DNA from: Candidatus Hydrogenedens sp.
GTDB lineage: Bacteria > Hydrogenedentota > Hydrogenedentia > Hydrogenedentales > Hydrogenedentaceae
Length of the DNA stretch: 64,000 nucleotides
Assembly (NCBI GenBank): GCA_049968235.1
Contig: JBMFRC010000001.1
Coordinates: 32,001 to 96,000 of the forward strand
Direction of reading: 5' to 3'
In this document: positions 10,246 to 43,230 of the stretch, piece after piece
Position numbering within the stretch: the first letter of the stretch is position 1
Layout of the letters: every line of letters starts with the position of its first letter
Translations under genes and position numbers: made by a program
The notes under the pieces: generated by a model
The model's input: the letters and a program-made list of their open reading frames with translations, nothing else
Database searches by the model: none
Told to the model about the DNA's origin: nothing

Positions 10246-11190
10246 TTATAGAATCCCTTTAAAGTATTCAATCGTATATTTCAACCCTTCCTTAAGCGGA
10301 ATTTTTGGTTCCCAGTTCAGTTTTTCTTTCGCAAGAGAAATATCTGGTTTTCTTCGACAGGGGTCGTTTTCGGGTAGGGGTTTAAAAATAATTTCCGAAG
10401 ACGAACCTGTCATCTCACAAACTAATTTTGCCAATTCCAGAATAGTAAATTCTCCGGGATTCCCTAAATTTACAGGACCGGTAAACCCTTCACAATCCAT
10501 CATCCGAAGGATACCTTCAATTACATCGCTAATGTAACAAAAAGAGCGTGTTTGAGAACCATCTCCGAAGACAGTTATGGGTTCGTTTCGCAATGCCTGC
10601 ACAATAAAATTACTGACCACCCTTCCATCATTAATCAACATGCGAGGACCGTATGTATTAAAGATTCGTATTACACGAATGTCCACTCCATTTTGACGAT
10701 GATAATCAAAAAACAAAGCCTCCGCCACACGTTTGCCCTCATCATAACAACTACGTTTGCCAATAGGGTTCACATTGCCCCAATAGGTCTCAGGCTGAGG
10801 ATGCACAGTAGGGTCTCCGTAAACTTCTGATGTACTGGCTTGTAAAACGCGCGCCTTCACCCGTTTTGCCATACCCAATACATTTAACGCTCCCATAACA
10901 TTGGTTTTAATCGTTTTTACTGCATTGAATTGATAATGAACTGGTGAAGCCGGACACGCTAAATTAAATATTCGGTCTACTTCAAGAAGGATGGGTTCGG
11001 TTATATCATGGCGAATAATTTCAAATTGTGGATGCCCTATTATGTGCTGAATATTTTGTTTCCTACCTGTAAAAAAATTATCCAGGCAAATAACTTCCTC
11101 CCCGCGTCGCAATAAAGCCTCACACAAATGTGAACCGATAAAACCTGCCCCACCTGTAACTAAATTTACTCGTCTCATATCTTGCTCCAA
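10246..11190 (-). CDS. UDP-glucuronate decarboxylase / NAD-dependent sugar epimerase-dehydratase (UXS-like SDR)
   Basis: [37 protein letters not shown]… The Rossmann GxxGxxG and extended SDR fold are typical of UDP-xylose synthase. Confidence 0.8.
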
Positions 11191-11229
11191 ACAAGTCTGT
11201 TCTTTACTATTATATGATTTTTTCCCCGA

Positions 11230-11739
11230 TTATCCCAATTCCGAATGTATGAATGCTTCCCAATTTATTTTCACCACACCTTTTTTTACCGTTATTGGTT
11301 TGTTATGAAAACAAATTCCTGCACCATGCACCTCCCCGGGAAACAAAACCATAAATTGACCCGGCACATTTTGAATTACATTTATCTTGGATACATCTAC
11401 ATTATAAAACCTAACATCTTTTTTAATATCATACTCGGTTTTCACTTGAGCCATAGATTCAGGAAGCCATCCTATACCTTCTTCCCCTGAAAGTGAGAAT
11501 TGGACATCAATAAATTTCTTATGTGATTCAAAAATCGCTTCCGAAATTTCTTTTGTGGTATAGGACATAACCCGGGCTTTTATATCTTCTTTATAGATAA
11601 ACTCCATATCTGTATCCGGGCTATTTTCTTTTAGTCCCTGAATATAATTCAATACGAAATTTCCTATCTTCCCACGGAAATACCGTTCCCAATTTTCAAA
11701 TCGGTCAACTATCATGATTTTAACACCTCCTCGCAACAA
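11230..11739 (-). CDS. YhcH/YjgK/YiaL (DUF386, EbgC-like) family protein
   Basis: The N-terminus MIVDRFENWERYF… and the length (169 aa) fit DUF386. Confidence 0.5.
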   Translation of the reverse strand: MLRGGVKIMIVDRFENWERYFRGKIGNFVLNYIQGLKENSPDTDMEFIYKEDIKARVMSYTTKEISEAIFESHKKFIDVQFSLSGEEGIGWLPESMAQVKTEYDIKKDVRFYNVDVSKINVIQNVPGQFMVLFPGEVHGAGICFHNKPITVKKGVVKINWEAFIHSELG

Positions 11740-12476
11740 GCAGTGCGTATTTTCTTTGCAAAGGACACACCCGGAATATCATAAATTTTTACAGTCCCCC
11801 CTGCAAATTTTATTAAAGCAGAACCACCTGCAATATCCCATAGCATAATTTCATCTTGAATAAAAGCGTCAATCCGACCACAGGCTACATAAGCCAGAGA
11901 TAATGCAGATGTACCTAAAAAACGAACCCTTTTATACTTCTTTAATTCATGGATATATTGCTGAAATTCATTTTCCGTATATGGACGAAACACCGGAAGT
12001 CCTGTGGCAACAATTCCATGCTTCGCCTGATTTATAGGGGAAACCTTGATGGGACTATCATTTAGGAATGCACCATTTTCCTTTGTTCCCGAAAATAATT
12101 CTTGTTTCAGAAAATCATAAACGATACCCAGTAAAAATTCATCATCTTTCATAAGAGCAATTGAGATAGCACACAACGGTATTTTCCTGCTGAAATTCAA
12201 TGTTCCATCCAATGGGTCAATTATCCAGAAAGGCTCATTCATAACATATTCACGAACCCAACCTCGTTCTTCAGATAAAATAGCAAATGGTGTCGATTCC
12301 AGCACATCTATAATTGCAGATTCAGATTCGCGGTCTGCCAGTAACTTTATGTCTCGGTCGTCTTCATAAATAACTTCGCAGGGCTCTCGAAAAAGGTCTG
12401 ATAAAATAATACCTGCTCGATGTACTGCGGTAATACCTAATTCTAAATATTCCTGAACATTCATTATAAACACCAC
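11712..12476 (-). CDS. Inositol monophosphatase family protein (IMPase/SuhB/CysQ-like)
   Basis: WIIDPLDGTLNFSR (DPxDGT) and the C-terminal WDIAGG motif. Confidence 0.8.
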   Translation of the reverse strand: MVFIMNVQEYLELGITAVHRAGIILSDLFREPCEVIYEDDRDIKLLADRESESAIIDVLESTPFAILSEERGWVREYVMNEPFWIIDPLDGTLNFSRKIPLCAISIALMKDDEFLLGIVYDFLKQELFSGTKENGAFLNDSPIKVSPINQAKHGIVATGLPVFRPYTENEFQQYIHELKKYKRVRFLGTSALSLAYVACGRIDAFIQDEIMLWDIAGGSALIKFAGGTVKIYDIPGVSFAKKIRTACCEEVLKS

Positions 12477-12477
12477 C

Positions 12478-13146
12478 TTAATGGTATAAATTTTTACCCC
12501 GTTTCTGTGCTATAAAAGTACTGATAATATGTGTAATGATACAGAATACATCTTCAACGGGTCCGTATTCATCTTTCGTACTTGCAACAAGAAGTCCATA
12601 ATCACATAACGAAATCATTCTACCTCCGTCACAACCTGCTATACCTATCGTTTTAATTTCATGCTCCTTTGCCCATTCCACTACCTTTATAACATTGGGA
12701 CTATTCCCACTAACAGACATTGCTATTAATAAATCACCTTCCTTAGCAAAAGCACGCAATTGCCCAATAAATATGTTTTCATAACCTTCATCATTTCCTA
12801 ATGCAGTAATTACCGCCTGGTTATCTGATAAATTTATAGCACGAATAGGCGGACAATTTGTAACATAATTTCCTACGACCAAATCATTAACCCAATGAGA
12901 GAGGACTGAAGAACTACCACCGTTACCCGCAAGAAATAGGGTCTTCCCTTCACTGATTTTATTCCACATTACATCGGCTATTTTTGTTAACACATCTTTA
13001 TTTAAATGCGTAAGAATTTGGCACAAACGTTCACAATACCCATTATAGTAATCAGTAAAACTGGGAGATGATTGAAACAAATTTTTCATGAAATACATAT
13101 AAAATACTCCGTAGATTATTGTTAAAAAGATATTTAATTTTAACAT
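12478..13146 (-). CDS. SIS-domain protein, phosphoheptose isomerase-like (GmhA family)
   Basis: LFLAGNGGSSSVLSHWVNDL… and DLLIAMSVSGNSPNVIKVVEWAKEHEIKTIGIAGCDGG. The true start may be at an internal Met (MKNLFQ…). Confidence 0.7.
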   Translation of the reverse strand: MLKLNIFLTIIYGVFYMYFMKNLFQSSPSFTDYYNGYCERLCQILTHLNKDVLTKIADVMWNKISEGKTLFLAGNGGSSSVLSHWVNDLVVGNYVTNCPPIRAINLSDNQAVITALGNDEGYENIFIGQLRAFAKEGDLLIAMSVSGNSPNVIKVVEWAKEHEIKTIGIAGCDGGRMISLCDYGLLVASTKDEYGPVEDVFCIITHIISTFIAQKRGKNLYH

Positions 13147-13763
13147 GTTAAATCTAAAATACCTACGAATATTGTTATCACATTCCTTAATGCATAAACA
13201 AAAATAAATACAGGAAACAGTATAAGATATGCTAAATACAGGAGCAAATTATCTTTGCCCCGAATATAGCACAAGCATTTATTCCTTCTTTTGCAATTAT
13301 AAGTGGTGCGATTATTTTAATTTATCAGAGTAATACAATTATCCTGCTTTTGATAAATTCAATTTATTAATTAGCACCGGCATTTCTCTCTTTGCTTTTT
13401 ACCACGAATGGTGCGAGATGTAAATAAGCATAAAGTATTTATTATAGCAAATGATTATTCGCCATTACATAGAGATGCACTTGCCATGCAGGCGGGTTTT
13501 TGGAATGTGTTGGTAAAAATCGTTTCTGTCTGGCAGGACTTTCAGCAAGACAATGAGATAATTTTCACCACGGAGGACACGGAGGGACACATAGATATTT
13601 TTTTCTTATCACAGAAAGCACGGAGAACACAGAGAAGGGAACAGAGAATAGGTATGAGTATGGATATATTTATTCTATGATTTATATTCTCCTTTCCTTT
13701 TTTCTCTGTGTTTCTCTGTATTCTCTGGGGTGGAGTATTTTTTTTCTCACCACAGAGAGCACT

Positions 13764-14021
13764 ATCTTTTCTTGTTAATGACTGCATATAATTTGAAGTG
13801 GATATATGAGGAATTAAGGGGGCAAAAGGAGAAGTATGCATAGGTAACCAAAAGATAAAAATACTCACAGAAAATAACAAATAAAATGGGTAAAAGTAGG
13901 GATACAGACTTTTGTATTTTAATTTTTCATCGGGATTTTATCTCATAAAAACATGTATAATTTATACTCTTACCTCTTACCTCTTACCTCTTACCTCTTA
14001 CAAAAATTGTTCAGAGGTCTC
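13764..14021. repeat. ~250-bp repeated intergenic element, copy A; sits in the leader position 3' of cas2
   Basis: Aligns at ~85% identity with 40693-40926 (…tcttgttaatga(c/t)tgcatataatttgaag…ggaattaaggg…gcaaaaggaga…atgcatag…acaga…ttgtattttaattt…attttatctcataaa…aattgttcagaggtctc). Ends 10 nt before the cas2 stop codon. Confidence 0.8.
13967..14001. repeat. Microsatellite (CTCTTAC)x5 inside element copy A
   Basis: Five perfect tandem heptamers. Copy B has unrelated sequence at the corresponding position. Confidence 0.9.
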
Positions 14022-14031
14022 GTGTATTTTT

Positions 14032-14358
14032 TTATACTATAATAAGGTTGGGGTTTGAGATGGGTGTATAGTAGTTTAGTCCGTTTCTGTTGATAATTTT
14101 GATTTTATTTGCATCAGCATGGCAAAGGGGTATGATATGTATAATAAGTTGTCGGTTTTGGTCATTGGGTTGTTCGTTGGAGAGGTAATCACGAATGGTT
14201 TCCTGTAGTTTTTCGATAAGGAGTTCTTTTTCATATTCATCGAGGTCGCCCATGAAAACGGAGAATTGTATGTGCGAAGTTCCTACTTCTTCGAGGAGGT
14301 AGGTTATTTTGTTTCGTAGTTTATCGTTTCCTATGTCGAATAATAGTAGTGTTTGCAT
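14032..14358 (-). CDS. cas2: CRISPR-associated endoribonuclease Cas2
   Basis: MQTLLLFDIGNDKLRNKITYLLEEVGTSHIQFSVFMGDL… fits the canonical Cas2 N-terminal beta1-Asp/alpha1/beta2 pattern. 108 aa. Confidence 0.75.
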   Translation of the reverse strand: MQTLLLFDIGNDKLRNKITYLLEEVGTSHIQFSVFMGDLDEYEKELLIEKLQETIRDYLSNEQPNDQNRQLIIHIIPLCHADANKIKIINRNGLNYYTPISNPNLIIV

Positions 14359-14371
14359 AGGTTGATTTGTG

Positions 14372-15340
14372 TTATAGGTTGTATTTATTTTGTTGATTTA
14401 GGGTTTGTGTTAGTTTTATGGCTGCGAGCAGGATGTGTTTTTGGTAGTTGGTATTGGGGTCTTTGGGGGTAGGTTCATAGAGGCGTTCTATGTAAAGGGA
14501 GGAGAGTTTTTTTGTGTTTCTTTTTCGAGTAATCCGTTTTTCTGGAGTTGTACATTTATTCCTTGTCGTATGTAAGCGAGTAAGGGTGTATCGATGAGGG
14601 GTTGACGGAAAGGTTCGATAAAGAAGACGAGGGACTGTTTGTTGTTCTGTAGGGTGTGCAGAAACCCTGCATATGGGTCGAGTCCGGCGAGGGTTAAGGC
14701 ACGGAAGCATTCGGAGTAGAGGATGCCGTAACCGTAGTTGAGTGCAGAATTGACGGGGTCTTTCGAATGTCGGTGTGTTCTGTGGGTAAAGTTATAATTG
14801 GCTGGGATAAGTTGTTTGAAATATGACCAGTAGATGGATGAGGCGTGTGCTTCGGTGGACATGATTTGTTGTTTTGCGTGGGATATATTTTCAGTGTTGA
14901 TGGATTTTAATTTTTCGATGAGTGGGTAAATAGTATTGTGAAGTGTATCTTCGATTTGGGCTAAGTATGTTTTGTATCGACACAGGAATTAGAATTGGTT
15001 TTCGATTTTTGTTTGTATGTATTTTTTTGGCAATTTGTATGCCTAAGCCGTTCTGGATGGCTGTGTATTGGTTCCATCGGTTCTGGATATGGGGGTGATT
15101 GTATATAGGCTGGATAAAAGTGATGGAGTTCCCGTAGGGCTTACATACGGTTAAGGCGATGTCTTGCTGGCTTGCGAGTGAAAGTGCTTCAGCGGAGATG
15201 GAAAATCCTTGGGTGAAGATGATGATGTGTGAGAGTTTGCTGGATGGGATTGTTTTAAGGGTTTTGTTTTCGCCGATAATTTTGAACATGTTTTTGTGTC
15301 TACCGACACGGATATTCTTTTCAATAAGGATGAGATGCAT
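14372..15340 (-). pseudogene. cas1: cas1 pseudogene (two or more frameshifts)
   Basis: N-terminal fragment 14891-15340 (MHLILIEKNIRVGRHKNMFKIIGE…GFSISAEALSLASQQDIALTV… fits the Cas1 N-domain). Middle fragment 14488-14862 in another frame (…DPVNSALNYGYGILYSECFRALTLAGLDPYAGFLH…SLVFFIEPFRQPLID… fits the Cas1 catalytic core). C-terminal remainder in a third frame. Total span about 323 codons. Confidence 0.7.
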
Positions 15341-15461
15341 GTTAAAGTCCTCCTCTTCATTATTTTTATTACATCTAACCTTAAAAAGTTGTATTATTTG
15401 CTATGTATTTAGTCCCAATCAATTTCGAGTTTGAACCAACCCATAGGAAGGGATGCCTTTG

Positions 15462-16643
15462 TTATTTTTTTTGTGATGTAGTTAATTTATGAGACTTTGG
15501 ATAAGGTATTTGGTCAGAACATCTGTCTCTCTTTGCTTTTCCCCATTTTTTGTCATTTGTATCTCCTTGTGAAAATAGTAATGTTATAGTTTTTGATAAA
15601 GAACCTGTGCCATAACCTAATTGTAAAAATATTTTTTTGCCTCTTTCTATCCTAATATCTTCAGGGATGTCATATTCATTTTTATTTACAGAATTAAAGA
15701 ATTCCAGTTGTTTATCAATTAAAATTTCTGAGTATTTGCGTAAACAATCTTGAAAACTCTGTGTATCGTTAAGAACATTTTTAAGATATTTTATCTATTC
15801 TCCGTTATTATATTTATATTCATCCAACATAAATTTTAATGCTTGTTGGTCTAAATAGAAATCTATAATTATTTCTTTACCTTTAGGAATCAGGCATTCA
15901 GCAAATATATCAAATGGTTTAGTTGAAAATTTGTCTCCATTTTTACTTTTTACTTTTATTTGACATATTCCAAAATTGTCGATAGGAATCTCTTTAGAGT
16001 CTCTGATTACTAAAAATTTAAATAAATCATATTTTGCATCATAATTCGAATTATCTACTTCTAATGTAGTATATTTTTCTATATTTTTATTAAGGAGAAT
16101 ATTATTAATATTATTTGACTCTTTAATTAAACAATTAGTGACTGCATTTCTTATACATCCCTTTATACTTGAACCTGGAATAAAAAATTTCCCAAATGGG
16201 TATTTTATAAAGGAAAGGATTGGAGGAAGAGAAGTAGATTCTTGACATATAGATTTTGACTGAGAATTTTGGGATTGTTTTTTCTCAACTTGTTTCTGTA
16301 TTTTTCTTAGTTCTGGAGGAAGTGCTGTATGTTTAGGCGATATGGACCTTGATTGTTTATTTGTTTTTTCTCCTCTTGTTCCAAAATCAGCATATATAGG
16401 AAGAGAATAGCGAATATATTCAGGGTCGGGACGAAAGGAGGGTTCTTCAATAATCTTTAAATCAGTTTCATAATCTTCGCAATTATCCTGAAAATATTTC
16501 ATGACATCTTTTAGACAGAATAATAGCTGTTTCTCGTCAATGTCAATGTAATATTCAAAATTCTGATATTCTTCGCCATCTGATATATGGATGGGAGTGA
16601 TAGGTGTTAGTTTGAATTTGCCATGTTTCTTTTTATCGTTCAT
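15462..16643 (-). pseudogene. csm5: Type III RAMP, Csm5-like (Cas7 group), interrupted by an in-frame TAG
   Basis: The N-terminus MNDKKKHGKFKLTPITPIHISDGEEYQNFEYY is Csm5-like. RAMP glycine loop IPGSSIKGCIRNAV. ORF stops at TAG 15795-15797. The same frame continues for 110 more codons (IKYLKNVLNDTQSF…ERGKKIFLQLGYGTGSLSKTITLL…) and contains a G-rich motif. AAGGAG lies 8 nt upstream of the ATG. Confidence 0.65.
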
Positions 16644-16656
16644 TGTTTTTCTCCTT

Positions 16657-17595
16657 TTAAGGATGTTTGAAATAGATATTGAATGCGAGACCGGAACGCC
16701 AGATAGGATGAGGTGATGAGTCGTAACTGATGGCGATTACATCCCCCTTAGGCATTTCTTTGATAACAGGGAATTTACTTCCTTCTATACACATACGAAC
16801 AGATTGTTTGGGTTCATCATACCCGGCAATGCCATGTATCCACCCACCTCGCATAGTGCATTCATAAGATGCGATATTGGTGAGAATACCATTTTCAAAT
16901 TCTTCCAAAGTAGGATGATAAAGACTGAGTATTGCGGGACTGAGTATTGCGGTAGCTTTTGGTGGACTTTCCTGCCCACTTATTTTGAGCGTATCATTTT
17001 CTTCAATAATATATTTTGATTCGAAAGGTTCAATTTTTTTATAGTAAAATGTCCGAAACCTAAACTGCGTTCACCACCAATACCCAGTTTACCCAAAGCG
17101 GATAGAAAATTGACAAATGATTCTTTTTTCTCTTCTTCTAATTTAACAAAAAACCACAATCCGACATCTTCTTCGCTATTTATCTCATAAAAATTTTGAG
17201 GGTAGGCTGTAGTTTGATTAGTAACCCGGTCAATGACGGTGGAAATTTTATAATTTTCTTTAACGGTTTTTTTGGAGGGGAAACCTTCTTTATTATTTAT
17301 CAGGTCATTCATTTCTTCATTCAGGAGAAAAGTTGTTCCTGGATTCTCTTCATCACCGTCTAAATAGGGATAATCTTCTTTTTTTTGGGAAAAGTTCTTT
17401 TAATATTTGCTGGGTTTCTTCTGCTTTTTGGAATATTGATGAAGTGGTTAGAAGAATGACATTATCAAAATCACCAATGTTAACAGAAGAAATAATCGGC
17501 CCCTATTGTGTTCCACCGGTGGGTGCTTCATCTACTCTCCCGTAAGGGTCATTTGTTCCTACAAAACTTAACAGTAGAGAAGATTTCCTCCCCAT
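16657..17595 (-). pseudogene. csm4: Csm4-like (Cas5 group) RAMP pseudogene, three frameshifts
   Basis: Segments: MGRKSSLLLSFVGTNDPYGRV…, then …GPIISSVNIGDFDNVILLTTSS…KELFPKK. Next the track's 110-aa ORF (…EDVGLWFFVKLEEEKKESFVNFLSALGKLGIGGERSLGFGHFTI), whose G-rich loop and context closely parallel Csm4. Then …KKIEPFES…MEEFENGILTNIAS… up to the stop at 16657. Two of the frame changes coincide with A8 and A7 homopolymers. A 15-bp tandem duplication lies at ~16926-16955. Confidence 0.5.
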
Positions 17596-17688
17596 ACTAT
17601 TCGGTCCTTTTTTATATTTAACTTTTAACTAATTTTGAATATACAATATAAAGAGTGTTTAAATCAAATTAAAGCAAGTAGGTTATTT

Positions 17689-18069
17689 TTATTTTTCGGG
17701 GAAAGAGGAGGGGTGGGAACCGATGGCGATAATACTGCAAGCGTAGATGGGATTTAAGTTGAGTTGGATTGCCTTTTGCATAAGTTCTTCGTCTTCCGCA
17801 CCGGGGTTGATGTAAAGTTCCTCATGCTTCTTTTTAGCGATTGAGGGTAAAAGTGTTTTGCCGATTTGGGGAGGGACATAGACACTGATACGGTCGATAG
17901 GCTCGGGGACCTCCTCAATAGATTTATAGCAGGGAATTCCTTCAATTTCTGTAAGGTTTGGATTGACGGGATAAACTGTCCATCCTCTGGCAATATATGC
18001 ACGAATAGCTTTGTTGCTATATTTGTTTTTGTCTGCAGATGCACCGATGATTGCAACCGTTTTAGACAT
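17689..18069 (-). CDS. CoA-binding domain protein (YccU/YneT-like), 126 aa
   Basis: MSKTVAIIGASADKNKYSNKAIRAYIARGWTVYPVNPN…IEGIPCYKS… The ATG at 18069 lies 4 nt after the clpP stop. The 253-aa track ORF is a spurious upstream extension overlapping clpP. Confidence 0.75.
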   Translation of the reverse strand: MSKTVAIIGASADKNKYSNKAIRAYIARGWTVYPVNPNLTEIEGIPCYKSIEEVPEPIDRISVYVPPQIGKTLLPSIAKKKHEELYINPGAEDEELMQKAIQLNLNPIYACSIIAIGSHPSSFPEK

Positions 18070-36060: not shown

Positions 36061-36311
36061 ATTTATAAGATGGATTTATTCTCATTACTTTACAATCTAA
36101 ATATTCATTCACAACTGCACCCGTCCCAAAAATTTCAGCATCTATCTGCGGGACTTTATTCACCCTTTTGGGATGACTAAATAGGGTATTTTTTACTCAC
36201 AATAATTTGTACCCTTTGTAGTTCAAAACTATTTTCGAAATTTTGCACATATTTAAAGTATAATTTAGTGCATATATTATCAATTTTCCCGTAATTTAAA
36301 AAGGATTTTTT

Positions 36312-37463
36312 ATGGCTATTGAACCGCATGGTGGAAAGTTAGTGAATCGTTTTGTCCCCGCTGATGAGAAGATAAAAAAGATAGAAGAGGCTAAAAAATT
36401 AAAGCAAATAATATTAGATGAATATTTATCTTTTGATTTAGATTGTATTGCTAAAGGGATATTTAGCCCTCTGGAAGGTTTCATGGGAGAAGAAGAAACC
36501 TTGTCAAGTCTGGAGACCATGCATATTCGTAAAACAATTCCATGGACGATTCCCATTCTTTTGGATGTCTCATTGGATAAAGCGGAGGGAATTGAGATAG
36601 GCGAAGTTGTAGGTTTATATAGTTCTGACAATGGATTGGTAGGGACCATAACCATTCAGGAGAAATTTCGATTAGATAAAAAATACCTTGCAGAAAAAGT
36701 ATATGGTACTACTGATGAACAGCATCCCGGTGTAAAAAGGACGTATAGTCGAGGGGATGTTTTTATATCAGGTCCTGTAGAGGTTTTTGACAGGAAGATT
36801 ATTGAATTTGAAGAATACAATTTACCTCCCCAGCAAACGCGCACTATTTTTGAAGAACGGGGATGGAAACGAATAGTCGCTTTCCAAACAAGAAATCCGA
36901 TACATAGGGCTCATGAATATCTTACAAAATGTGCTTTAGAGATATGTGATGGGCTTCTAATACATCCTTTAATGGGGACTACCAAAAGTGATGATATACC
37001 GGGGAGTGTTCGTATGGAATGTTATAAAGCACTGATTGAAAATTATTATCCTGATGACCATATCCTGTTGAGTATTATGCCTGTAAATATGAGATATGCA
37101 GGTCCTAAAGAAGCGATTATGCATGCTATTGTTCGTAAGAATTATGGTTGCACACATTTTATTGTGGGAAGAGACCATGCGGGTGTAGGAAATTACTACG
37201 GCACTTATGATGCACAAAAGATTTTTGATAATTTTAATCCTGAAGAATTAAAAATCACCCCTCTATTTTTTGACCATACCTTCTATTGTCAGGCATGCGG
37301 GAATATGGCATCTATAAAGACCTGTCCTCATGATAGTACGAAACATGTAATATTAAGTGGGACAAAGGTTCGGGAAATGCTGAAGAGAGGAGAAATTTTA
37401 CCGGAGGAATTTACAAGGAAAGAGGTTGCCTCTGTTTTAATAAAATGGGCACAAAATGGATAA
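36312..37463 (+). CDS. sat: Sulfate adenylyltransferase (ATP sulfurylase)
   Basis: …VAFQTRNPIHRAHEYL… (QTRN/HRAH motifs) and …GLLIHPLMGTTKSDDIP… 383 aa. Confidence 0.9.
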   Translation: MAIEPHGGKLVNRFVPADEKIKKIEEAKKLKQIILDEYLSFDLDCIAKGIFSPLEGFMGEEETLSSLETMHIRKTIPWTIPILLDVSLDKAEGIEIGEVVGLYSSDNGLVGTITIQEKFRLDKKYLAEKVYGTTDEQHPGVKRTYSRGDVFISGPVEVFDRKIIEFEEYNLPPQQTRTIFEERGWKRIVAFQTRNPIHRAHEYLTKCALEICDGLLIHPLMGTTKSDDIPGSVRMECYKALIENYYPDDHILLSIMPVNMRYAGPKEAIMHAIVRKNYGCTHFIVGRDHAGVGNYYGTYDAQKIFDNFNPEELKITPLFFDHTFYCQACGNMASIKTCPHDSTKHVILSGTKVREMLKRGEILPEEFTRKEVASVLIKWAQNG

Positions 37464-37494
37464 ATGCATCAGGATAAAATAAAAGAGGGACTTC

Positions 37495-38547
37495 ATGAAA
37501 GTAGGGATTAATTTATTTGCTTCTGAGGAATTTGAGTCGGATGACCTCTTTTGTCGGTTTTTATATAAATGTCTTTCGCATGCGACCCAATTGCAGGAGA
37601 CAACAGAGTTCTTCGTCTTTTTTAATAAAGAGATGGGATATGAACAATGGGCAGGATGTCCTGTTATAACAGAAACCCGTAAACAGGAAGGTTTCTTTTC
37701 TTCTTTTTCAATTCGGGGTTCTGTGTTAGACCCAATTTTACGGAAGTTTAAAATTGAGGTTGTAATTACACCTTTAGAAACAGCTCATCTTATCACATGT
37801 GTTCCCTGTATTCCATTGATAATTCATACAGAAAATTGGTATCGGGGTATTTTGAAAGAGGACTTTTTTCGCAAGCGTGATGTAAAAAGGATATTCCATG
37901 AAAGCCCTTTATGGCTAACGGCCTCTGAATATACGCGTCGTAGTTGTCTGGATGTATGGAAAATTCCATTAAATAAAATTGTGGCTTTACCTGCAGGTGT
38001 AGAGCCTGCACTTTCTCAAGTAGCCCCTCCATTAATAACCCCTCCGTATCTGGTTTCTGTTATAGATGATGCGACCATCCATTATTTACCGGAAACATTA
38101 GAAGTGTTGCAATATTTCTGTAAAGAAACGCCTCATACGATAGTTCTTCTCGGAAGAAAACATATAAAAGAACCTGTAAACTGGGGAGATAATATTTTTC
38201 GAATAGAAGAGTGTCCGGACCGTACATTATCGGGTTTATACCAGCATACGACTGCATTTATATATCCAGCCATTCATGATGGTAGTGCTTTACGACCCAT
38301 AGAAGCCATGCAAGCGGGAACATGCGTTGTAACACCTTCAACCGCTGTAATGGAAGAACGATGCGGGGAATTGCCGTTTTATTACTCTGCGGAAAATCCT
38401 TCCTCCTTGAATGCTGTTCTTCATCGTATTATAAATCTCCCTTCTGAGGAGCGAAAAGAGCGGATTCGATTGGGAAGACTGAGAGTAGTGGAATATACAT
38501 GGGAACAAACAACATGGAAACTCATTACTGCTTTGAAGCGTATTTAA
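37495..38547 (+). CDS. Glycosyltransferase, GT1/GT4-like (C-terminal E-x7-E type fold)
   Basis: …IYPAIHDGSALRPIEAMQAGTCVVTPSTAVMEE… has a GT-B C-domain signature. Confidence 0.55.
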   Translation: MKVGINLFASEEFESDDLFCRFLYKCLSHATQLQETTEFFVFFNKEMGYEQWAGCPVITETRKQEGFFSSFSIRGSVLDPILRKFKIEVVITPLETAHLITCVPCIPLIIHTENWYRGILKEDFFRKRDVKRIFHESPLWLTASEYTRRSCLDVWKIPLNKIVALPAGVEPALSQVAPPLITPPYLVSVIDDATIHYLPETLEVLQYFCKETPHTIVLLGRKHIKEPVNWGDNIFRIEECPDRTLSGLYQHTTAFIYPAIHDGSALRPIEAMQAGTCVVTPSTAVMEERCGELPFYYSAENPSSLNAVLHRIINLPSEERKERIRLGRLRVVEYTWEQTTWKLITALKRI

Positions 38548-38696
38548 TATTTTTTTGCATGAAATTTACTAATGGTTTATGATAAAAAATATAGATTGGA
38601 TATGTTAGTTGTCTGACAAGTCGGATAGCTCGGATGAGTCAGACCTGTAGGATAAAGTGGATTTAATTAAGAGTTAAAATATAAAAGGATTGGATT

Positions 38697-40223
38697 ATGA
38701 GTTATGTAATTGGTATTGATGTAGGAACCAGTGGAACAAAAATCGTTGCTATAAACGAAGAAGGGAAAGTAGTTGCATCTGTTATGAAAACTTATGATTT
38801 GCATAGTCCTAAACCGGGTTGGGCAGAACAAAATCCACATGATTGGAAGAAAGCGGTATTTGATGGACTATCCGAAATTTGTCACCAGATTAACGGACAG
38901 GATGTCCGTGCTATTGGCTTAACAGGACAGATGCATGGTTCTGTTTTTTTAGATGAAAAAGGGGATGTTTTATATCCTGCGATTTTATGGTGTGACCAGC
39001 GAACAGCCAAACAATGTGAAAAGATTAATGAAATCGTCGGGGAAAAGAAACTTCTGGAAATGGTATCCAATCCTGCTTTAACAGGATTTACCGCTCCGAA
39101 AATTCTGTGGTTAAGAGACGAGGTTCCGGAGGTATATAAGAAAGTAAAGCATGTTCTGTTACCGAAAGATTATATCCGTTATGAACTTACTGGAGAATTT
39201 GCTTCAGATGTAGCGGATGCTTCGGGAACATTACTTTTTAATGTCAATAAACGGTGCTGGCATGAGGAACTTTTAAGCAAATTGGATATACCTGTTGCAT
39301 GGTTACCTAAAGTTTATGAAGGTACAGAGGTTACAGGTAAAATAAAATCTTCTGTTGCAGAGCAACTGCGTTTATCTCCGGATGCGGTTGTTGTTGCAGG
39401 TGGAGGCGACCAGTCTGCAGGAGGTGTAGGTTGTGGAGTTGTCCGTTCGGGGATTGTTTCTGCTTCTCTGGGAACAAGTGGTGTCGTTTTTGCATTTGCG
39501 GAACATGTTCATACGGACCCGGAAGGGCGTGTTCATACTTTCTGCCATTCTGTTCCGGGAGCATGGCATGTAATGGGCGTCATGTTAAGTGCAGGGGGTT
39601 CTCTTCAATGGTTTCGAAATAAACTATGTAAGGAGGAGATTGAAAAATCAAAAGAAACAGGTATTGATACTTATGAATATATTACAGGACCGGCGGGAAA
39701 AGTTCCTATTGGCTCGAATGGCTTGATTTTCCTTCCCTATTTAACCGGGGAACGTACTCCCCATAAAGACCCCTATGCAAGAGGTGCTTTTATAGGCTTG
39801 TCTTTGATGCATGGGAAAACAGAAATGGCAAGGGCTGTAATGGAAGGGGTTGCTTTTGGTATGCGAGATAGTGTTGAGATTATGAGGGGAATGGGAATAC
39901 CCATTAATGAGGTTCGTATATCAGGTGGAGGAGCACGGAGTAGTTTGTGGAGACAAATAATGGCTGATATATGTAAAGTTCCTATGATAGTTATAAATGT
40001 GGATGAAGGGCCTGCCTTTGGAGCAGGTTTGTTAGCAAGTATTTCGGCGGGGATATTTACATCTCTTTCGGAAGCATGTGAAAGTATCATCAAGGAGTTG
40101 CACCGAGTAGAGCCTAATCCACAAAGCAGTGAGGAATATGAATTCTGGTACCAGGAATATAGGTCGGCATATTTATCCATTGCACCTGCTTTTAGAAGAA
40201 TTGGGAAAAAGTTAGAAGGATAA
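38697..40223 (+). CDS. xylB: Xylulokinase (FGGY carbohydrate kinase family)
   Basis: MSYVIGIDVGTSGTKIVAINEEGKVVAS…GWAEQNPHDW… plus FGGY N- and C-domain motifs. 508 aa. Confidence 0.85.
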   Translation: MSYVIGIDVGTSGTKIVAINEEGKVVASVMKTYDLHSPKPGWAEQNPHDWKKAVFDGLSEICHQINGQDVRAIGLTGQMHGSVFLDEKGDVLYPAILWCDQRTAKQCEKINEIVGEKKLLEMVSNPALTGFTAPKILWLRDEVPEVYKKVKHVLLPKDYIRYELTGEFASDVADASGTLLFNVNKRCWHEELLSKLDIPVAWLPKVYEGTEVTGKIKSSVAEQLRLSPDAVVVAGGGDQSAGGVGCGVVRSGIVSASLGTSGVVFAFAEHVHTDPEGRVHTFCHSVPGAWHVMGVMLSAGGSLQWFRNKLCKEEIEKSKETGIDTYEYITGPAGKVPIGSNGLIFLPYLTGERTPHKDPYARGAFIGLSLMHGKTEMARAVMEGVAFGMRDSVEIMRGMGIPINEVRISGGGARSSLWRQIMADICKVPMIVINVDEGPAFGAGLLASISAGIFTSLSEACESIIKELHRVEPNPQSSEEYEFWYQEYRSAYLSIAPAFRRIGKKLEG

Positions 40224-40692
40224 AGAATTTTTTTATATATGAGGCCTCTGAATAAAACATATACGATAAATAGTATATGAAAGTTTATATACAGGAAGGA
40301 TAAGGGAAAAAATGAAACGAAAGATGTATATATTTCACAAAAGGAATAGGTTAATTACACAGTAAAGAAAAAGTTAAATGGAGAAAGGTAAATGTGCGGT
40401 ACAATGAAAGAGGTAAAGCAGATGAGGTTTTTAGATTATGCAGTATCAAAACAGAAACCGACATGATGAGAGAAATAATTGAAAGTGATGCCAGAGATAA
40501 CCCTGTGGGAGAAATTGAAATGTAGATGAGTAGAGGGGAGTGTATAAATAAAACTGGGGATAGCGAAGGAGGTTTGTCCTTACTATTTTATGCATTGTTA
40601 ACCAGTGAGTGATGATTTCTTTTTGTTCTCTGTGGTTGATTATGTTTTTTACATTACGGAGAACACGGAGAGGCTCAGAAAGAGGAGTATAT

Positions 40693-40926
40693 CATTTCTT
40701 GTTAATGATTGCATATAATTTGAAGCGGATGTATGGGGAATTAAGGGAGCAAAAGGAGAGTTATGCATAGATAATAAAAAAATAAAAGAACTGACAGAAA
40801 ATAATAACCGAAATGGGTAAAGGTAGAAATACAGACTCTTGTATTTTAATTTCGTATGGGAATTTTATCTCATAAATAATTTATAATTTATACCCTAACC
40901 TTTTGCACGAATTGTTCAGAGGTCTC
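40693..40926. repeat. ~250-bp repeated intergenic element, copy B
   Basis: ~85% identical to 13764-14021 and ends with the same aattgttcagaggtctc. Lies between the convergent xylB and the 764-aa gene. Lacks the (CTCTTAC)5 tract. Confidence 0.8.
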
Positions 40927-40935
40927 AAATATTGT

Positions 40936-43230
40936 TCAGGTACTTGCATACTGGCGCAATTCTTGTAAAATTGTGGAAAGGCGTTCTGATGTTTTTTCGA
41001 TATAAGGGAGAAATCTTTTTCCTTTTCCTTCACGAACCCCCATACGATATTCCGTAAATTCACCTGCTAATTTTAAGACCTCTTCTTTATATTTATCCAC
41101 AATAGTATTTTTTCCCTCACTTAATAAACGACACAAGACACCATCACAGGCACATAAAATAGCCCCAACCTCAAAAAGTTTCCCCCGTACTTTATATATA
41201 TCTTCTATTGTATAAAGGGTATTCGTTACTTGATTTTTTATTTCTACCATTTTTTGTAAGGTATTCATGGATTGTTTTTCTTTTAATTCTCTTATCCTAT
41301 CTATTATTTTTTCTACCGATGGTAAATAGGGTTTAAGTAGTTCAACATTAATTGAAATTTGTTGCTCAATATAATCAAAAATTCGATACATAATTATCTC
41401 TCCCCAACGCTGGCATTCTTCGGGAGTAGCAATAAGAATAATTTGTCCCTGTCCGGGAAACATTTCGCGATGGAAAGAGGGAGGTAGTTCTTCCCACTGG
41501 TAAGAACGGACAAATTGAGTAGCGTCGTATGCACGATATTGTTCCGGTAAAGCGGAACGGAAATTAATATTAACCCCTGTTACTTCTGATGTGTCTTGAT
41601 TTACAAGATAAAACAACCAGAAATTTTCTCCTTTCATCCATGTATGAATTAAAATATCAACATTATCGGGACATCTTGAACGAGGATGTTTCCGTGATTG
41701 GATATCCGGTGAAAAATCAGGAGGATTTGTAGGTTTTGCTGTCATCACTAACGAGGCAAGAGAGTAGAAGCATCCTAACCTCCCTCCTAATTCCTGCCAG
41801 ACATCACTGAAAGTCAGGAAAGGTCCTGTTAAAGAACGCTGACATTCACCTCCTGACCATAGCGGTATATTATGGTATGTATAACTTAGCCATCCGCGGA
41901 CACCGCTGGATATTGCCAAATTGACCATAAGTCGTATTTCTGGCGCAGAATTCCAAATAGGGGCGCCGGAACCAAAAACAAATGCGGGACCAATTGCCCA
42001 TAAATGTTGCCCATTAACAAATTTTATATGGGTTTTAAGGACATGTCCTAATTCCCATGGAGTTTTTGATTTCCAATGACTTATCCCGGAAATTGAAGAA
42101 AAGGGAGCGTATACGGGGAAGGCATTGGCTTCTCGTGTAAGGTAAATGACAGGATGTTTTTCATCTATCTGTTCAATTTTCTTTTTGATTTGTATATAAG
42201 CATCTACTTCCGAATCGGAGGGATTTTCTTTGATTACCCATCCGAACAAATTATCTTCGGTAGAATATCTTTTAATAGAATGCTCTTTTTCTTTGATAAA
42301 TGATGCTGTCTTTGTAGGTTCCAGGAGTACGGTTTCTTCTTCTAAAGAAATGATTAATTTAATATTGTGTTTTTTAGAGGTTTCAAAGAGTACTTCCTGG
42401 TCTCCTGGCAGGAATTCATAAAATCTTTCTACAAAGGCAACATTATGATAATGTAGAGACATATCTTCAAATAATAAATCCAGATAAGAAGATAGGTCTA
42501 TTTTCATAAGATGGGACATATTTCGGGCTGTATTAGCATTGATATAGGTTCCTATCGGAAAGAAATTATCCAGGACAGGATAATGAATCGGTTTTTCATT
42601 GGCGGATGGTAAAATATCTTTTTTGTTGAGCAGGTTTCTTTCTCTTTCCGTAGGTTCTCGAAAGCGTATACTGCGAATATACATTGTCTCTTTTGTTCTT
42701 GTAAATGAATATAAGCGGAGAGCAAAGTTTTCCATCTTTCTCGGGAAACTATTGAAACACCATGCCCTTGCTACTGTAATCCATTTAAAATCCATATCGA
42801 GGAATTCAAAAAATTGACCTGTTGTATAGTGCCATGTCCATGCGGGAAGACATTTACCATATTGCATACGATAGGATATTTCAACAATGGGGTGTTTGTT
42901 CTGTGCTATAGGGAAATGGGGAACAGAACTTGTTCGAGTGCTTAATGGAACCCAGTAACTGGGTCTTTCCATGTCTTTTAAAAAATTTAATCTGCGTAAT
43001 CCAGTAAAATCACCCGTCCATCGTAGAACTTTTTCTCCATCTATTTCATCTATCATCTTTCGGGCAGGGATATCTTTCCACTCCTGTTCTCCCGGGTCAT
43101 CTTCCTGGGACCATTTCATCAAATCTTCTGCATAAAATGTAATATTTGAACATCTCTCCCGTTCTTCTAAAGTTGGCGGTTCTTTGATTTTGTTTAGAAG
43201 TCCTTTGTAAATATAATATTCGTTTTCCAT
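40936..43230 (-). CDS. Hypothetical 764-aa protein, possibly a carbohydrate-active enzyme (next to a sugar ABC transporter)
   Basis: No signal peptide and no family recognisable by eye. Genomic context (permease plus sugar-binding protein) only. Confidence 0.35.
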   Translation of the reverse strand: MENEYYIYKGLLNKIKEPPTLEERERCSNITFYAEDLMKWSQEDDPGEQEWKDIPARKMIDEIDGEKVLRWTGDFTGLRRLNFLKDMERPSYWVPLSTRTSSVPHFPIAQNKHPIVEISYRMQYGKCLPAWTWHYTTGQFFEFLDMDFKWITVARAWCFNSFPRKMENFALRLYSFTRTKETMYIRSIRFREPTERERNLLNKKDILPSANEKPIHYPVLDNFFPIGTYINANTARNMSHLMKIDLSSYLDLLFEDMSLHYHNVAFVERFYEFLPGDQEVLFETSKKHNIKLIISLEEETVLLEPTKTASFIKEKEHSIKRYSTEDNLFGWVIKENPSDSEVDAYIQIKKKIEQIDEKHPVIYLTREANAFPVYAPFSSISGISHWKSKTPWELGHVLKTHIKFVNGQHLWAIGPAFVFGSGAPIWNSAPEIRLMVNLAISSGVRGWLSYTYHNIPLWSGGECQRSLTGPFLTFSDVWQELGGRLGCFYSLASLVMTAKPTNPPDFSPDIQSRKHPRSRCPDNVDILIHTWMKGENFWLFYLVNQDTSEVTGVNINFRSALPEQYRAYDATQFVRSYQWEELPPSFHREMFPGQGQIILIATPEECQRWGEIIMYRIFDYIEQQISINVELLKPYLPSVEKIIDRIRELKEKQSMNTLQKMVEIKNQVTNTLYTIEDIYKVRGKLFEVGAILCACDGVLCRLLSEGKNTIVDKYKEEVLKLAGEFTEYRMGVREGKGKRFLPYIEKTSERLSTILQELRQYAST

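What the first reader, a model, noticed from the sequence alone, without database searches (positions are those of the whole stretch)
13150..17690. Decaying type III-A-like CRISPR-Cas locus with no array and no Cas10, sitting where clpX normally follows clpP
On the minus strand I read, in order: psi-csm4 (3 frameshifts), psi-csm5 (in-frame TAG), psi-cas1 (2 or more frameshifts), intact-looking cas2, then a leader-like element. No CRISPR repeats are visible, and cas10, csm2, csm3 and cas6 are absent. The block is wedged between a gmhA-like gene and a small CoA-binding gene that abuts clpP. In the common tig-clpP-clpX arrangement clpX would be at this spot. This is a snapshot of CRISPR-Cas loss, with unusual remnants retained.
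Basis: partly seen in the sequence, partly recalled or inferred. Interest (0 to 1): 0.7.

Follow-up and report, generated by a model that had tools for sequence, protein, structure and literature searches.

The report
Decayed type III-A CRISPR-Cas remnant
This is the dead remnant of a type III-A CRISPR-Cas immune locus in a Candidatus Hydrogenedens genome, broken by one 6-kb deletion and about eight small lesions. A related genome still has the whole locus at the same spot, so this is a real but ordinary case of CRISPR loss.

Summary
On the minus strand of 13150-17690 lie, in order:
- the 3' two-thirds of csm4;
- csm5;
- cas1;
- an intact 108-aa cas2.

All but cas2 carry stops or frameshifts.

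A related Hydrogenedens contig (L002/L005) has the intact order tig-clpP-CoA-binding gene-rtcR-cas10-csm2-csm3-csm4-csm5-cas1-cas2 at the same site. It shows that one ~6-kb deletion, between AAAAAGAAG microhomologies in rtcR and csm4, removed cas10, csm2 and csm3.

A second assembly reproduces every lesion it covers, with no gaps. 42 long homopolymers in intact genes are unbroken. The lesions are therefore not assembly errors.

There is no array in the 64 kb. The "leader-like" stretch is not the leader. It holds a dispersed ~265-bp repeat, a palindromic element and one probable relic CRISPR repeat.

clpX is not displaced. In this genus clpP is followed by the CoA-binding gene, and the site after that gene is variable.

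An intact cas2 is expected by chance (P about 0.44).

The verdict is an ordinary, well-documented decay of a known system. The side observations are a G-poor cas1-cas2 clade and an RtcR-type regulator linked to type III-A in relatives.

The parts
17380..17595 (-). Stump of an RtcR-like CARF/sigma-54 activator gene: codons 1-72 of about 506, with an in-frame TAG at 17503-17505.
   Evidence: tblastn with the L002 RtcR-like protein gives 56% identity over residues 1-72, E=2e-23. The codon is TAT in L002. The L002 protein carries PF06956 RtcR and PF00158 Sigma54_activat.
17379..17386 (-). Deletion junction in an A8 run. It fuses rtcR codon 72 to csm4 codon ~139. About 6 kb is missing: the 3' part of rtcR, cas10, csm2, csm3 and the 5' part of csm4.
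   Evidence: blastn against L002: L002 2-1891 matches window 19254-17375, and L002 7944-8852 matches window 17279-16361. Both L002 end points carry AAAAAGAAG.
16657..17384 (-). Pseudo-csm4 (cas5 family): codons ~139-377 only. It has one frameshift in the A7 run 17034-17040 and a 15-bp in-frame tandem duplication at 16923-16952.
   Evidence: TIGR01903 profile positions 129-212 and 239-302 of 304 are matched. Identity to L002 Csm4 is 60-64%, in two frames. The tandem repeat was found by TRF.
15409..16643 (-). Pseudo-csm5: TAG at 15795-15797, a frameshift in the A8 run 15465-15472, and several internal in-frame deletions.
   Evidence: TIGR01899 E=3e-18. Alignment to L002 and L087 Csm5.
14372..15340 (-). 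Pseudo-cas1: frameshifts in A7 runs 15022-15028 and 14507-14513, TAA at 14989-14991, and a 3-bp loss of the catalytic Asp codon (VFDFIE becomes VF-FIE) at 14622/14623.
   Evidence: PF01867 and TIGR00287 hits. Identity to intact Cas1 P0001/P0002 is 77-78% in three frames.
14032..14358 (-). cas2: intact, 108 aa, the same length as in all four intact relatives, with the N-terminal FDIGND motif kept.
   Evidence: PF09827 39.7 bits and TIGR01573 35.9 bits. Identity to relatives is 64-76% with no gaps.
13763..14027 (.). Copy A of a dispersed ~265-bp repeat, containing (CTCTTAC)5 at 13967-14001. It lies where the CRISPR leader lies in relatives.
   Evidence: 85% identity to window 40690-40930. A third copy lies next to nadK in L088. 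There is no homology to the L084 or L003 leaders.
13590..13760 (.). Palindromic CAGAGAA-rich element.
   Evidence: Inverted arms are visible in the sequence. DNA fold -21.8 kcal/mol, z = -2.6. A 28-nt match to a similar motif lies in the L084 leader.
13520..13561 (-). Probable relic of one degenerate CRISPR repeat: TTATCTCATTGTCTTGCTGAAA...GACAGAAAC.
   Evidence: 20 of 22 bases match repeat positions 3-24, and 8 of 9 match the repeat's 3' end. 29 of 34 bases are identical to L093 2633-2666, which follows a truncated cas1 there. None of 500 shuffles reach that score. Caveat: one equally good chance match to the repeat exists elsewhere in the window.

Best explanation
The block is a non-functional, vertically inherited remnant of a type III-A (Csm) CRISPR-Cas locus in a Candidatus Hydrogenedens genome.

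**Ancestral state.** The order, still intact in relative L002/L005, was tig-clpP-CoA-binding gene-rtcR-like regulator-cas10-csm2-csm3-csm4-csm5-cas1-cas2-leader-array.

**Route of decay**
1. One ~6-kb deletion between short AAAAAGAAG microhomologies in rtcR and csm4 removed cas10, csm2, csm3 and parts of the flanking genes. This abolished interference. The deletion itself is shown. The microhomology mechanism is inferred, with L002 standing in for the ancestor.
2. Relaxed selection then allowed slippage frameshifts at four A7-A8 runs, three nonsense substitutions and a 3-bp loss of the Cas1 catalytic Asp (shown).
3. The leader and array were lost or replaced. The space now holds a dispersed repeat, a palindromic element and at most one degenerate repeat. 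The absence is shown. The route is inferred.

**cas2.** It is intact most likely because it is short, not because it is needed.

**Timing.** Inactivation is recent compared with the split from relatives.
For: - **Gene identities:** HMM hits.
- **Intact orthologue:** an intact locus at the same site in L002/L005.
- **Deletion end points:** read from blastn and tblastn, with microhomology at both ends.
- **Lesion catalogue:**
- **Independent assembly:** GCA_049971155.1 contig L001 is 99.96% identical over window 19450-14637, with 2 substitutions and 0 gaps. It shares the rtcR TAG, the junction, the csm4 and csm5 lesions, the first cas1 frameshift and the TAA.
- **Homopolymers:** 42 runs of 7 or more bases inside long intact ORFs are unbroken.
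- **Absent genes:** no cas10, csm2 or csm3 anywhere in the window.
- **No array:**
- **Timing:** dN/dS between the window and intact relatives is 0.05-0.21, the same range as between intact pairs, and dS is saturated. Most divergence therefore happened under selection.
- **cas2 by chance:** 8 lesions in about 3.15 kb predict 0.83 lesions in the 327-bp cas2. The chance of none is about 0.44 (own calculation).
- **Parallel case:** L093/L094 show a second, independent decay of the same locus type.
Against: - The stretch 13980-14637 (the 3' end of cas1, cas2 and the right end of the repeat) is seen only in the window's own assembly. Contig L088 of the other assembly leaves the repeat into nadK-pilZ instead of cas2. 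The cas2/gmhA adjacency could therefore be strain-specific or, less likely, a mis-join.
- Only 64 kb is visible. An array, or a second CRISPR-Cas system that could use cas2, may lie elsewhere in the genome.
- No expression data are available.
Confidence: 0.9

Rival explanations
1. The locus is really intact, and the frameshifts and stops are sequencing or assembly errors, for example homopolymer errors in a long-read assembly.
For: Four frameshifts and the deletion junction all fall in A7-A8 runs. The window seems to come from a 421-kb contig, so long reads may have been used.
Against: - A separate, fragmented assembly has the same sequence with zero gaps over every lesion it covers.
- Three lesions are base substitutions that create stop codons, and one is a clean 3-bp deletion.
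- The 6-kb deletion cannot be a homopolymer error.
- 42 other long homopolymers lie in unbroken ORFs.
Confidence: 0.03
2. The remnant keeps a function. cas2 alone, or cas2 with other pieces, is kept by selection, for example as a nuclease or toxin-like protein, or to serve another CRISPR-Cas system elsewhere in the genome.
For: cas2 is full length, scores above the Pfam and TIGRFAM cut-offs and keeps the N-terminal Asp motif. The putative promoter upstream of the rtcR stump is still present in the sequence.
Against: - Intactness of a 327-bp gene is expected by chance, with P about 0.44.
- cas2 has 9 unique changes at sites where the four relatives agree. That is the highest of the five sequences, with 8 and 6 on the longer L087 and L086 branches.
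- Its partner cas1 has lost its catalytic Asp and its reading frame.
- No other cas genes or array lie in the 64 kb.
Confidence: 0.07
3. The array was not deleted. It was moved away from cas2 by recombination or inversion between copies of the dispersed ~265-bp repeat, and survives elsewhere in the genome.
For: - The repeat abuts the cas2 stop. It has at least three copies.
- In another assembly the same left flank continues into nadK-pilZ, with the switch inside the repeat.
- In L093 the cas remnant lies next to genes that are at 36-42 kb in the window, in the opposite relative orientation.
Against: - No array lies next to copy B or anywhere else in the 64 kb.
- A probable relic repeat remains at 13520-13561, which suggests in-place loss.
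- L088 could be an assembler join across a repeat.
Confidence: 0.15

Closest known systems
Type III-A (Csm) CRISPR-Cas systems, as in Staphylococcus epidermidis, Streptococcus thermophilus and Thermus thermophilus
   Same: The Csm4 and Csm5 fragments match the III-A equivalog models TIGR01903 and TIGR01899. The intact orthologous locus has cas10 (Csm1_B domain), csm2 (PF03750), csm3, csm4, csm5, cas1, cas2 and a 37-nt repeat array.
   Different: - Here cas10, csm2, csm3 and the array are gone, and csm4, csm5 and cas1 are pseudogenes.
- Even the intact relative has no cas6 or csm6 in the locus.
- The relative has an RtcR-like CARF/sigma-54 activator upstream of cas10 instead of a CARF nuclease.
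Degraded or partial CRISPR-Cas loci and orphan cas genes, as widely noted in CRISPR-Cas classification surveys (own knowledge)
   Same: The signature effector gene is lost, homopolymer frameshifts and nonsense mutations have built up, the array is lost, and short genes survive by chance.
   Different: In this case the deletion end points, the ancestral state and a second, independent decay (L093/L094) can all be read directly from relatives.
RtcR, the CARF-domain sigma-54 enhancer-binding protein of the rtcBA RNA-repair operon
   Same: The 72-codon stump is orthologous to the N-terminus of the L002 protein, which carries the PF06956 (RtcR) and Sigma54_activat domains.
   Different: - Makarova et al. 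2014 (PMC4012209) list the RtcR-like family among the CARF families not typically found near cas genes. In L002 and L006 it sits directly upstream of cas10.
- In the window only a dead stump remains. It gives no HMM hit of its own.

Membership tests
Type III-A (Csm) CRISPR-Cas system | The signature gene cas10 (csm1) is present. | tested here: not met
   tblastn with L002 Cas10 finds nothing in the 64-kb window at E<=0.01. The gene falls inside the ~6-kb deletion.
Type III-A (Csm) CRISPR-Cas system | The Csm2 small subunit and the Csm3 (Cas7) backbone are present. | tested here: not met
   There are no Csm2 or Csm3 hits in the window. The only Csm3 match, a weak one restricted to the block, falls inside csm5, another RAMP protein.
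Type III-A (Csm) CRISPR-Cas system | Csm4 (Cas5) and Csm5 are present with open reading frames. | tested here: not met
   The sequences are recognisable: TIGR01903 at E=1e-14 and 3e-9, TIGR01899 at E=3e-18. But csm4 lacks 138 codons and has a frameshift, and csm5 has a TAG and a frameshift.
Type III-A (Csm) CRISPR-Cas system | A CRISPR array with a leader is present. | tested here: not met
   TRF, direct-repeat search and searches with the relatives' repeat find no array in 64 kb. The leader of relatives has no counterpart. At most one degenerate repeat remains, at 13520-13561.
Cas1 integrase | Intact reading frame and catalytic Glu/His/Asp residues. | tested here: not met
   Two frameshifts and a TAA are present. 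The Asp of the VFDFIE motif, invariant in P0001-P0004, is deleted. The Glu (EAHAS) and His (GFLH) remain.
Cas2 | Full-length ORF above the family cut-offs, with the N-terminal Asp. | tested here: met
   PF09827 39.7 bits against 23.8, and TIGR01573 35.9 against 24.5. The protein is 108 aa, as in all four relatives, and the FDIGND motif is conserved. Activity cannot be tested with these tools.
RtcR-like CARF/sigma-54 activator | CARF domain plus sigma-54-interaction AAA+ domain plus HTH. | tested here: not met
   Only codons 1-72 remain, with a TAG. There is no Pfam hit, even at E<=10. No sigma-54 AAA+ match to the L002 protein occurs elsewhere in the window.
   The L084 and L003 leaders share a TTGACT-N17-TATACT promoter and conserved blocks that are absent from window 13147-14031. 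The window stretch is instead 85% identical to a repeat at 40690-40930.

The most novel reading that the evidence does not exclude
The decay itself is ordinary. The locus belongs to a small Hydrogenedens-specific type III-A lineage with two odd features that my evidence does not explain away.

1. **G-depleted sense strand.**
 - Composition: cas1-cas2, and in some members csm4-csm5, have a strongly A+C-rich sense strand. G is 9-13% and C is 22-37%. At third codon positions of cas1, C is 0.38-0.53 against 0.11-0.16 in neighbouring genes. Sense-strand GC skew is -0.29 to -0.6.
 - Distribution: the bias is found in every member, intact or decayed. It increases towards the leader.
 - Reading: it resembles a strand-specific deamination signature, as in vertebrate mitochondrial genes. 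It could equally reflect selection for G-poor transcripts.
2. **Regulator.** An RtcR-type CARF/sigma-54 activator sits directly upstream of cas10, followed by a sigma-54-like TGGCAT-N5-TTGT motif. This hints at transcription of the effector operon controlled by cyclic oligoadenylate or RNA ends.

If either feature reflects a real mechanism, the lineage is a new variant of type III regulation or mutational biology.
Probability: 0.2. Interest if true: 0.55.

Novelty: new member of a known kind. Interest (0 to 1): 0.25.

Why it matters
- **A worked example of CRISPR loss.** An effector-killing microhomology deletion came first. Slippage frameshifts and nonsense mutations in the now-useless genes followed, and the leader and array were lost. 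The ancestral state and a parallel, independent decay can both be seen in relatives.
- **Annotation.** The cas1, cas2, csm4 and csm5 hits here must not be counted as a functional CRISPR-Cas system. The intact cas2 should not be over-interpreted.
- **Wider interest.** This lies in the side observations on the intact relatives: the G-poor adaptation module and the RtcR-like regulator next to cas10. The remnant itself is of limited interest.

Tried and rejected
- **Leader homology:** a MAFFT alignment of 13147-14040 with the stretches downstream of cas2 in L084, L003, L086 and L087 found no shared leader blocks.
- **Array search:** TRF, spaced direct repeats, and the 37-nt and 27-nt repeat cores with mismatches found no array.
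- **Self-targeting as a cause of loss:** spacers from L003, L084 and L093 gave only chance matches of 15 nt or less in the window.
- **Rfam:** searches of 13100-17700 and 40200-41000 found nothing below E=0.4.
- **Antisense or overlapping genes:** eight small ORFs in the block have no Pfam family.
- **Plus-strand ORF 13408-13680:** it matches only itself among 5.8 billion proteins. NCBI lists it as hypothetical protein ACP5UA_00180. It is probably spurious.
- **Dispersed repeat in viral contigs:** no match.
- **orf90:** this ORF lies between cas1 and cas2 in L002/L003. I first took its absence from the window as a deletion. I rejected that, because L084, L086, L087, L089 and L090 also have cas1 directly followed by cas2.
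- **Faster protein evolution on the window branch:** not detectable. Distances to L086 and L087 equal those of intact relatives, and dS is saturated.
- **clpX:** no ClpX Walker-A or zinc-finger motif occurs anywhere in the window. Relatives show that clpX is not the normal neighbour here.
- **Exact-sequence look-up of Cas2:** not on record.
Full report

Yes. ORF listing and three-frame translation of the minus strand of 13100-17700 show a run of broken reading frames between two intact genes. These are a SIS-domain (gmhA-like) gene at 12478-13146 and a CoA-binding gene that abuts clpP.

Profile searches identify the pieces:
- Cas2 at 14032-14358 (PF09827, 39.7 bits; TIGR01573).
- Cas1 in at least two fragments (PF01867, E=9e-34 and 3e-14).
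- Csm5 at 15795-16643 (TIGR01899, E=3e-18).
- The C-terminal two-thirds of Csm4 (TIGR01903, profile positions 129-212 and 239-302 of 304; PF17953).

The window holds no tandem or spaced repeat array.

**2. Organism and ancestral state**

The CoA-binding protein places the window in Candidatus Hydrogenedens (Hydrogenedentota). Its best match is Ca. H. terephthalaticus at 93%.

A repaired Cas1 finds four intact relatives at 69-78% identity (P0001-P0004). After them there is a gap down to about 32% identity.

The contig that carries P0002 (L002, which is the same contig as L005, CALLRP010000021.1) has, at the same genomic site, this gene order:
- tig, clpP and the CoA-binding gene;
- an RtcR-like protein of 506 aa (PF06956 plus Sigma54_activat);
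- cas10 (916 aa), csm2, csm3, csm4 (377 aa) and csm5 (439 aa);
- cas1 (324 aa), a 90-aa ORF and cas2 (108 aa).

L006 also has the rtcR-like gene after the CoA-binding gene.

In L003 and L084, a leader of about 560-780 bp with a TTGACT-N17-TATACT promoter follows cas2. An array of 37-nt repeats comes next: GTTTATCTCATTGCCCTGCTGAAAAAGGGATAGAAAC, or the variant CTTTAACTCTTTGCCC....

**3. Anatomy of the decay**

blastn and tblastn against the intact orthologues give an exact map.

- **rtcR stump.** 17595-17380 encodes codons 1-72 of the rtcR-like gene (56% identity, E=2e-23). It has a TAG at 17503-17505 where L002 has TAT.
- **Deletion junction.** At the A8 run 17379-17386 the stump is joined to csm4 codon ~139.
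  - In L002 both end points read AAAAAGAAG: rtcR has ...CCAAAAAAAGAAG... and csm4 has ...CGAAAAAGAAGAA....
  - One microhomology-mediated deletion of about 6 kb therefore accounts for the loss of cas10, csm2, csm3 and the flanking gene parts.
- **csm4.** The remainder has one frameshift, in the A7 run 17034-17040, and a 15-bp in-frame duplication.
- **csm5.** It has a TAG (15795-15797), a frameshift in an A8 run (15465-15472) and several in-frame deletions.
- **cas1.** It has two frameshifts in A7 runs (15022-15028 and 14507-14513) and a TAA at 14989-14991 where L084 has CAA. It has also lost the GAC codon of the invariant VFDFIE motif, the catalytic Asp.
- **cas2.** It is intact and collinear with all relatives.
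- **Elsewhere in the window.** No cas10, csm2 or csm3 lies anywhere in the 64 kb.

**4. Not an artefact**

- Contig L001 of a different, fragmented assembly (GCA_049971155.1) matches window 19450-14637 with 2 substitutions and no gaps. It therefore carries the same stump, junction, csm4 and csm5 lesions, first cas1 frameshift and TAA.
- 42 homopolymers of 7 or more bases lie inside long intact ORFs of the window without breaking them.
- Three lesions are substitutions and one is a clean codon deletion.
- The part 13980-14637 is covered only by the window's own assembly.

**5. Age, and the status of cas2**

- Synonymous sites between the window and every relative are saturated.
- dN/dS is 0.05-0.21, the same as among intact pairs.
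- Protein distances from the window to the outgroups L086 and L087 equal those of the intact L084 and L002.

The genes were therefore under selection for nearly all of their history, and inactivation is recent.

With 8 lesions in about 3.15 kb of remnant coding sequence, a 327-bp gene is expected to carry 0.83 lesions. The chance of none is about 0.44. The intact cas2 needs no functional explanation.

**6. The stretch between cas2 and the gmhA-like gene (13147-14031)**

It is not the leader. It has no counterpart of the conserved leader blocks of L084 and L003. It contains three things.

- **A dispersed repeat.**
  - 13763-14027 is 85% identical to window 40690-40930, which likewise abuts the stop of a minus-strand gene.
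  - A third copy lies next to nadK in L088. L088 is 99.6% identical to window 10933-13980. It switches to another copy at about 13920, inside the repeat.
  - Relative to L093, the 700 bp around copy B are an insertion.
- **A palindromic CAGAGAA-rich element** at 13590-13760.
- **A probable relic CRISPR repeat** at 13520-13561.
  - 20 of 22 bases match repeat positions 3-24, and 8 of 9 match the repeat's 3' end.
  - 29 of 34 bases match a sequence that follows the truncated cas1 of L093. No shuffle out of 500 reaches that score.
  - One equally good chance match to the repeat exists elsewhere in the window, so this relic is probable, not certain.

**7. The clpX remark**

- No ClpX motifs occur in the window.
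- In the genus, clpP is followed by the CoA-binding gene. What follows that gene varies:
  - the intact III-A locus in L005 and L006;
  - glycoside-hydrolase and membrane-protein genes in Ca. H. terephthalaticus (L004);
  - a GatB/YqeY-like gene in L008.
- The CRISPR locus has therefore not taken the place of clpX. It occupies a variable site.

**8. Parallel decay**

L093 and L094, from metagenomes, carry csm4 and csm5, then a cas1 that is frameshifted and cut off at about codon 166, then a single degenerate repeat. This is an independent loss of the adaptation module and array in a related lineage.

**9. Comparison and verdict**

The block is a remnant of a type III-A system. It fails every functional membership criterion except the presence of a Cas2 ORF.

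It works like nothing: it is a pseudogene cluster. The mechanism of loss is a microhomology deletion, then homopolymer slippage and nonsense mutations, then replacement of the array. This is textbook. Novelty is low: it is a new instance of a known kind.

Two features of the lineage, rather than of the remnant, remain unexplained and could repay study:
- the strongly G-poor, C-rich sense strand of cas1-cas2 in all members;
- an RtcR-type CARF/sigma-54 regulator directly upstream of cas10. Makarova et al. 2014 list that family among the CARF families not typically found near cas genes (PMC4012209).

Noticed in passing
window 14030-15340; also L002 10001-11846, L084 248-1559, L086 121-1430, L087 3-2676, L089 3400-5100, L093 1-2700: The sense strand of cas1-cas2 is very G-poor and C-rich. 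G is 9-13% and C is 22-37%. GC skew is -0.29 to -0.6. In cas1, third-position C is 0.38-0.53 against 0.11-0.16 in neighbouring genes, and first-position G is 0.14-0.18 against 0.28-0.36. The bias is present in the decayed copy and in every intact relative. In the window it starts sharply at the cas1 ATG. In relatives it grows towards the leader, and in L093 it also covers csm4-csm5. The pattern resembles the A+C-rich sense strand of vertebrate mitochondrial genes. The cause is unknown.
   Followed up: partly
L002 1672-3192 and 3300-3320; L006 10486-11553; window 17380-17595 (stump): In intact relatives an RtcR-like CARF/sigma-54 enhancer-binding protein lies directly upstream of cas10. A sigma-54-like motif, CTGGCATCTTTCTTGTTA, lies about 35 bp before the cas10 start. 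Makarova et al. 2014 (PMC4012209) list the RtcR-like family among the CARF families not typically found near cas genes.
   Followed up: partly
window 13763-14027 and 40690-40930; L088 2832-3076: A dispersed ~265-bp repeat has at least three copies at 85% identity or more. Each copy lies immediately 3' of the stop of a gene: cas2, a 764-aa ORF and nadK. One copy carries (CTCTTAC)5. There is no Rfam hit and no viral match. It appears to be a recombination or assembly break point between strains.
   Followed up: partly
L093 1-2800 and L094: A related metagenomic lineage shows an independent decay. Its cas1 is frameshifted and truncated at about codon 166, and is followed by a half repeat and one degenerate repeat. 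The neighbouring genes (L093 6952-12610) are syntenic with window 36230-42600, in the opposite orientation relative to the cas genes. This points to a local inversion between lineages.
   Followed up: partly
window 13590-13760; L084 1766-1830: A palindromic element is built from CAGAGAA/TTCTCTG 8-9-mers. When translated it gives TEDTEG- or SVSSV-like peptides. A similar motif occurs in the leader of L084 and near repeat copy B (40626-40670).
   Followed up: no
L086 1430-2273; L090 3438-6218: One relative species has intact csm3-csm5, cas1 and cas2 but no CRISPR array within 0.8-2.8 kb downstream of cas2. The array position is therefore not fixed in this lineage.
   Followed up: no
L002 11000-11272: A 90-aa ORF lies between cas1 and cas2 only in L002 and L003. 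It is G-poor like its neighbours and has no Pfam domain. It is absent from the other relatives checked (L084, L086, L087, L089, L090) and from the window.
   Followed up: no
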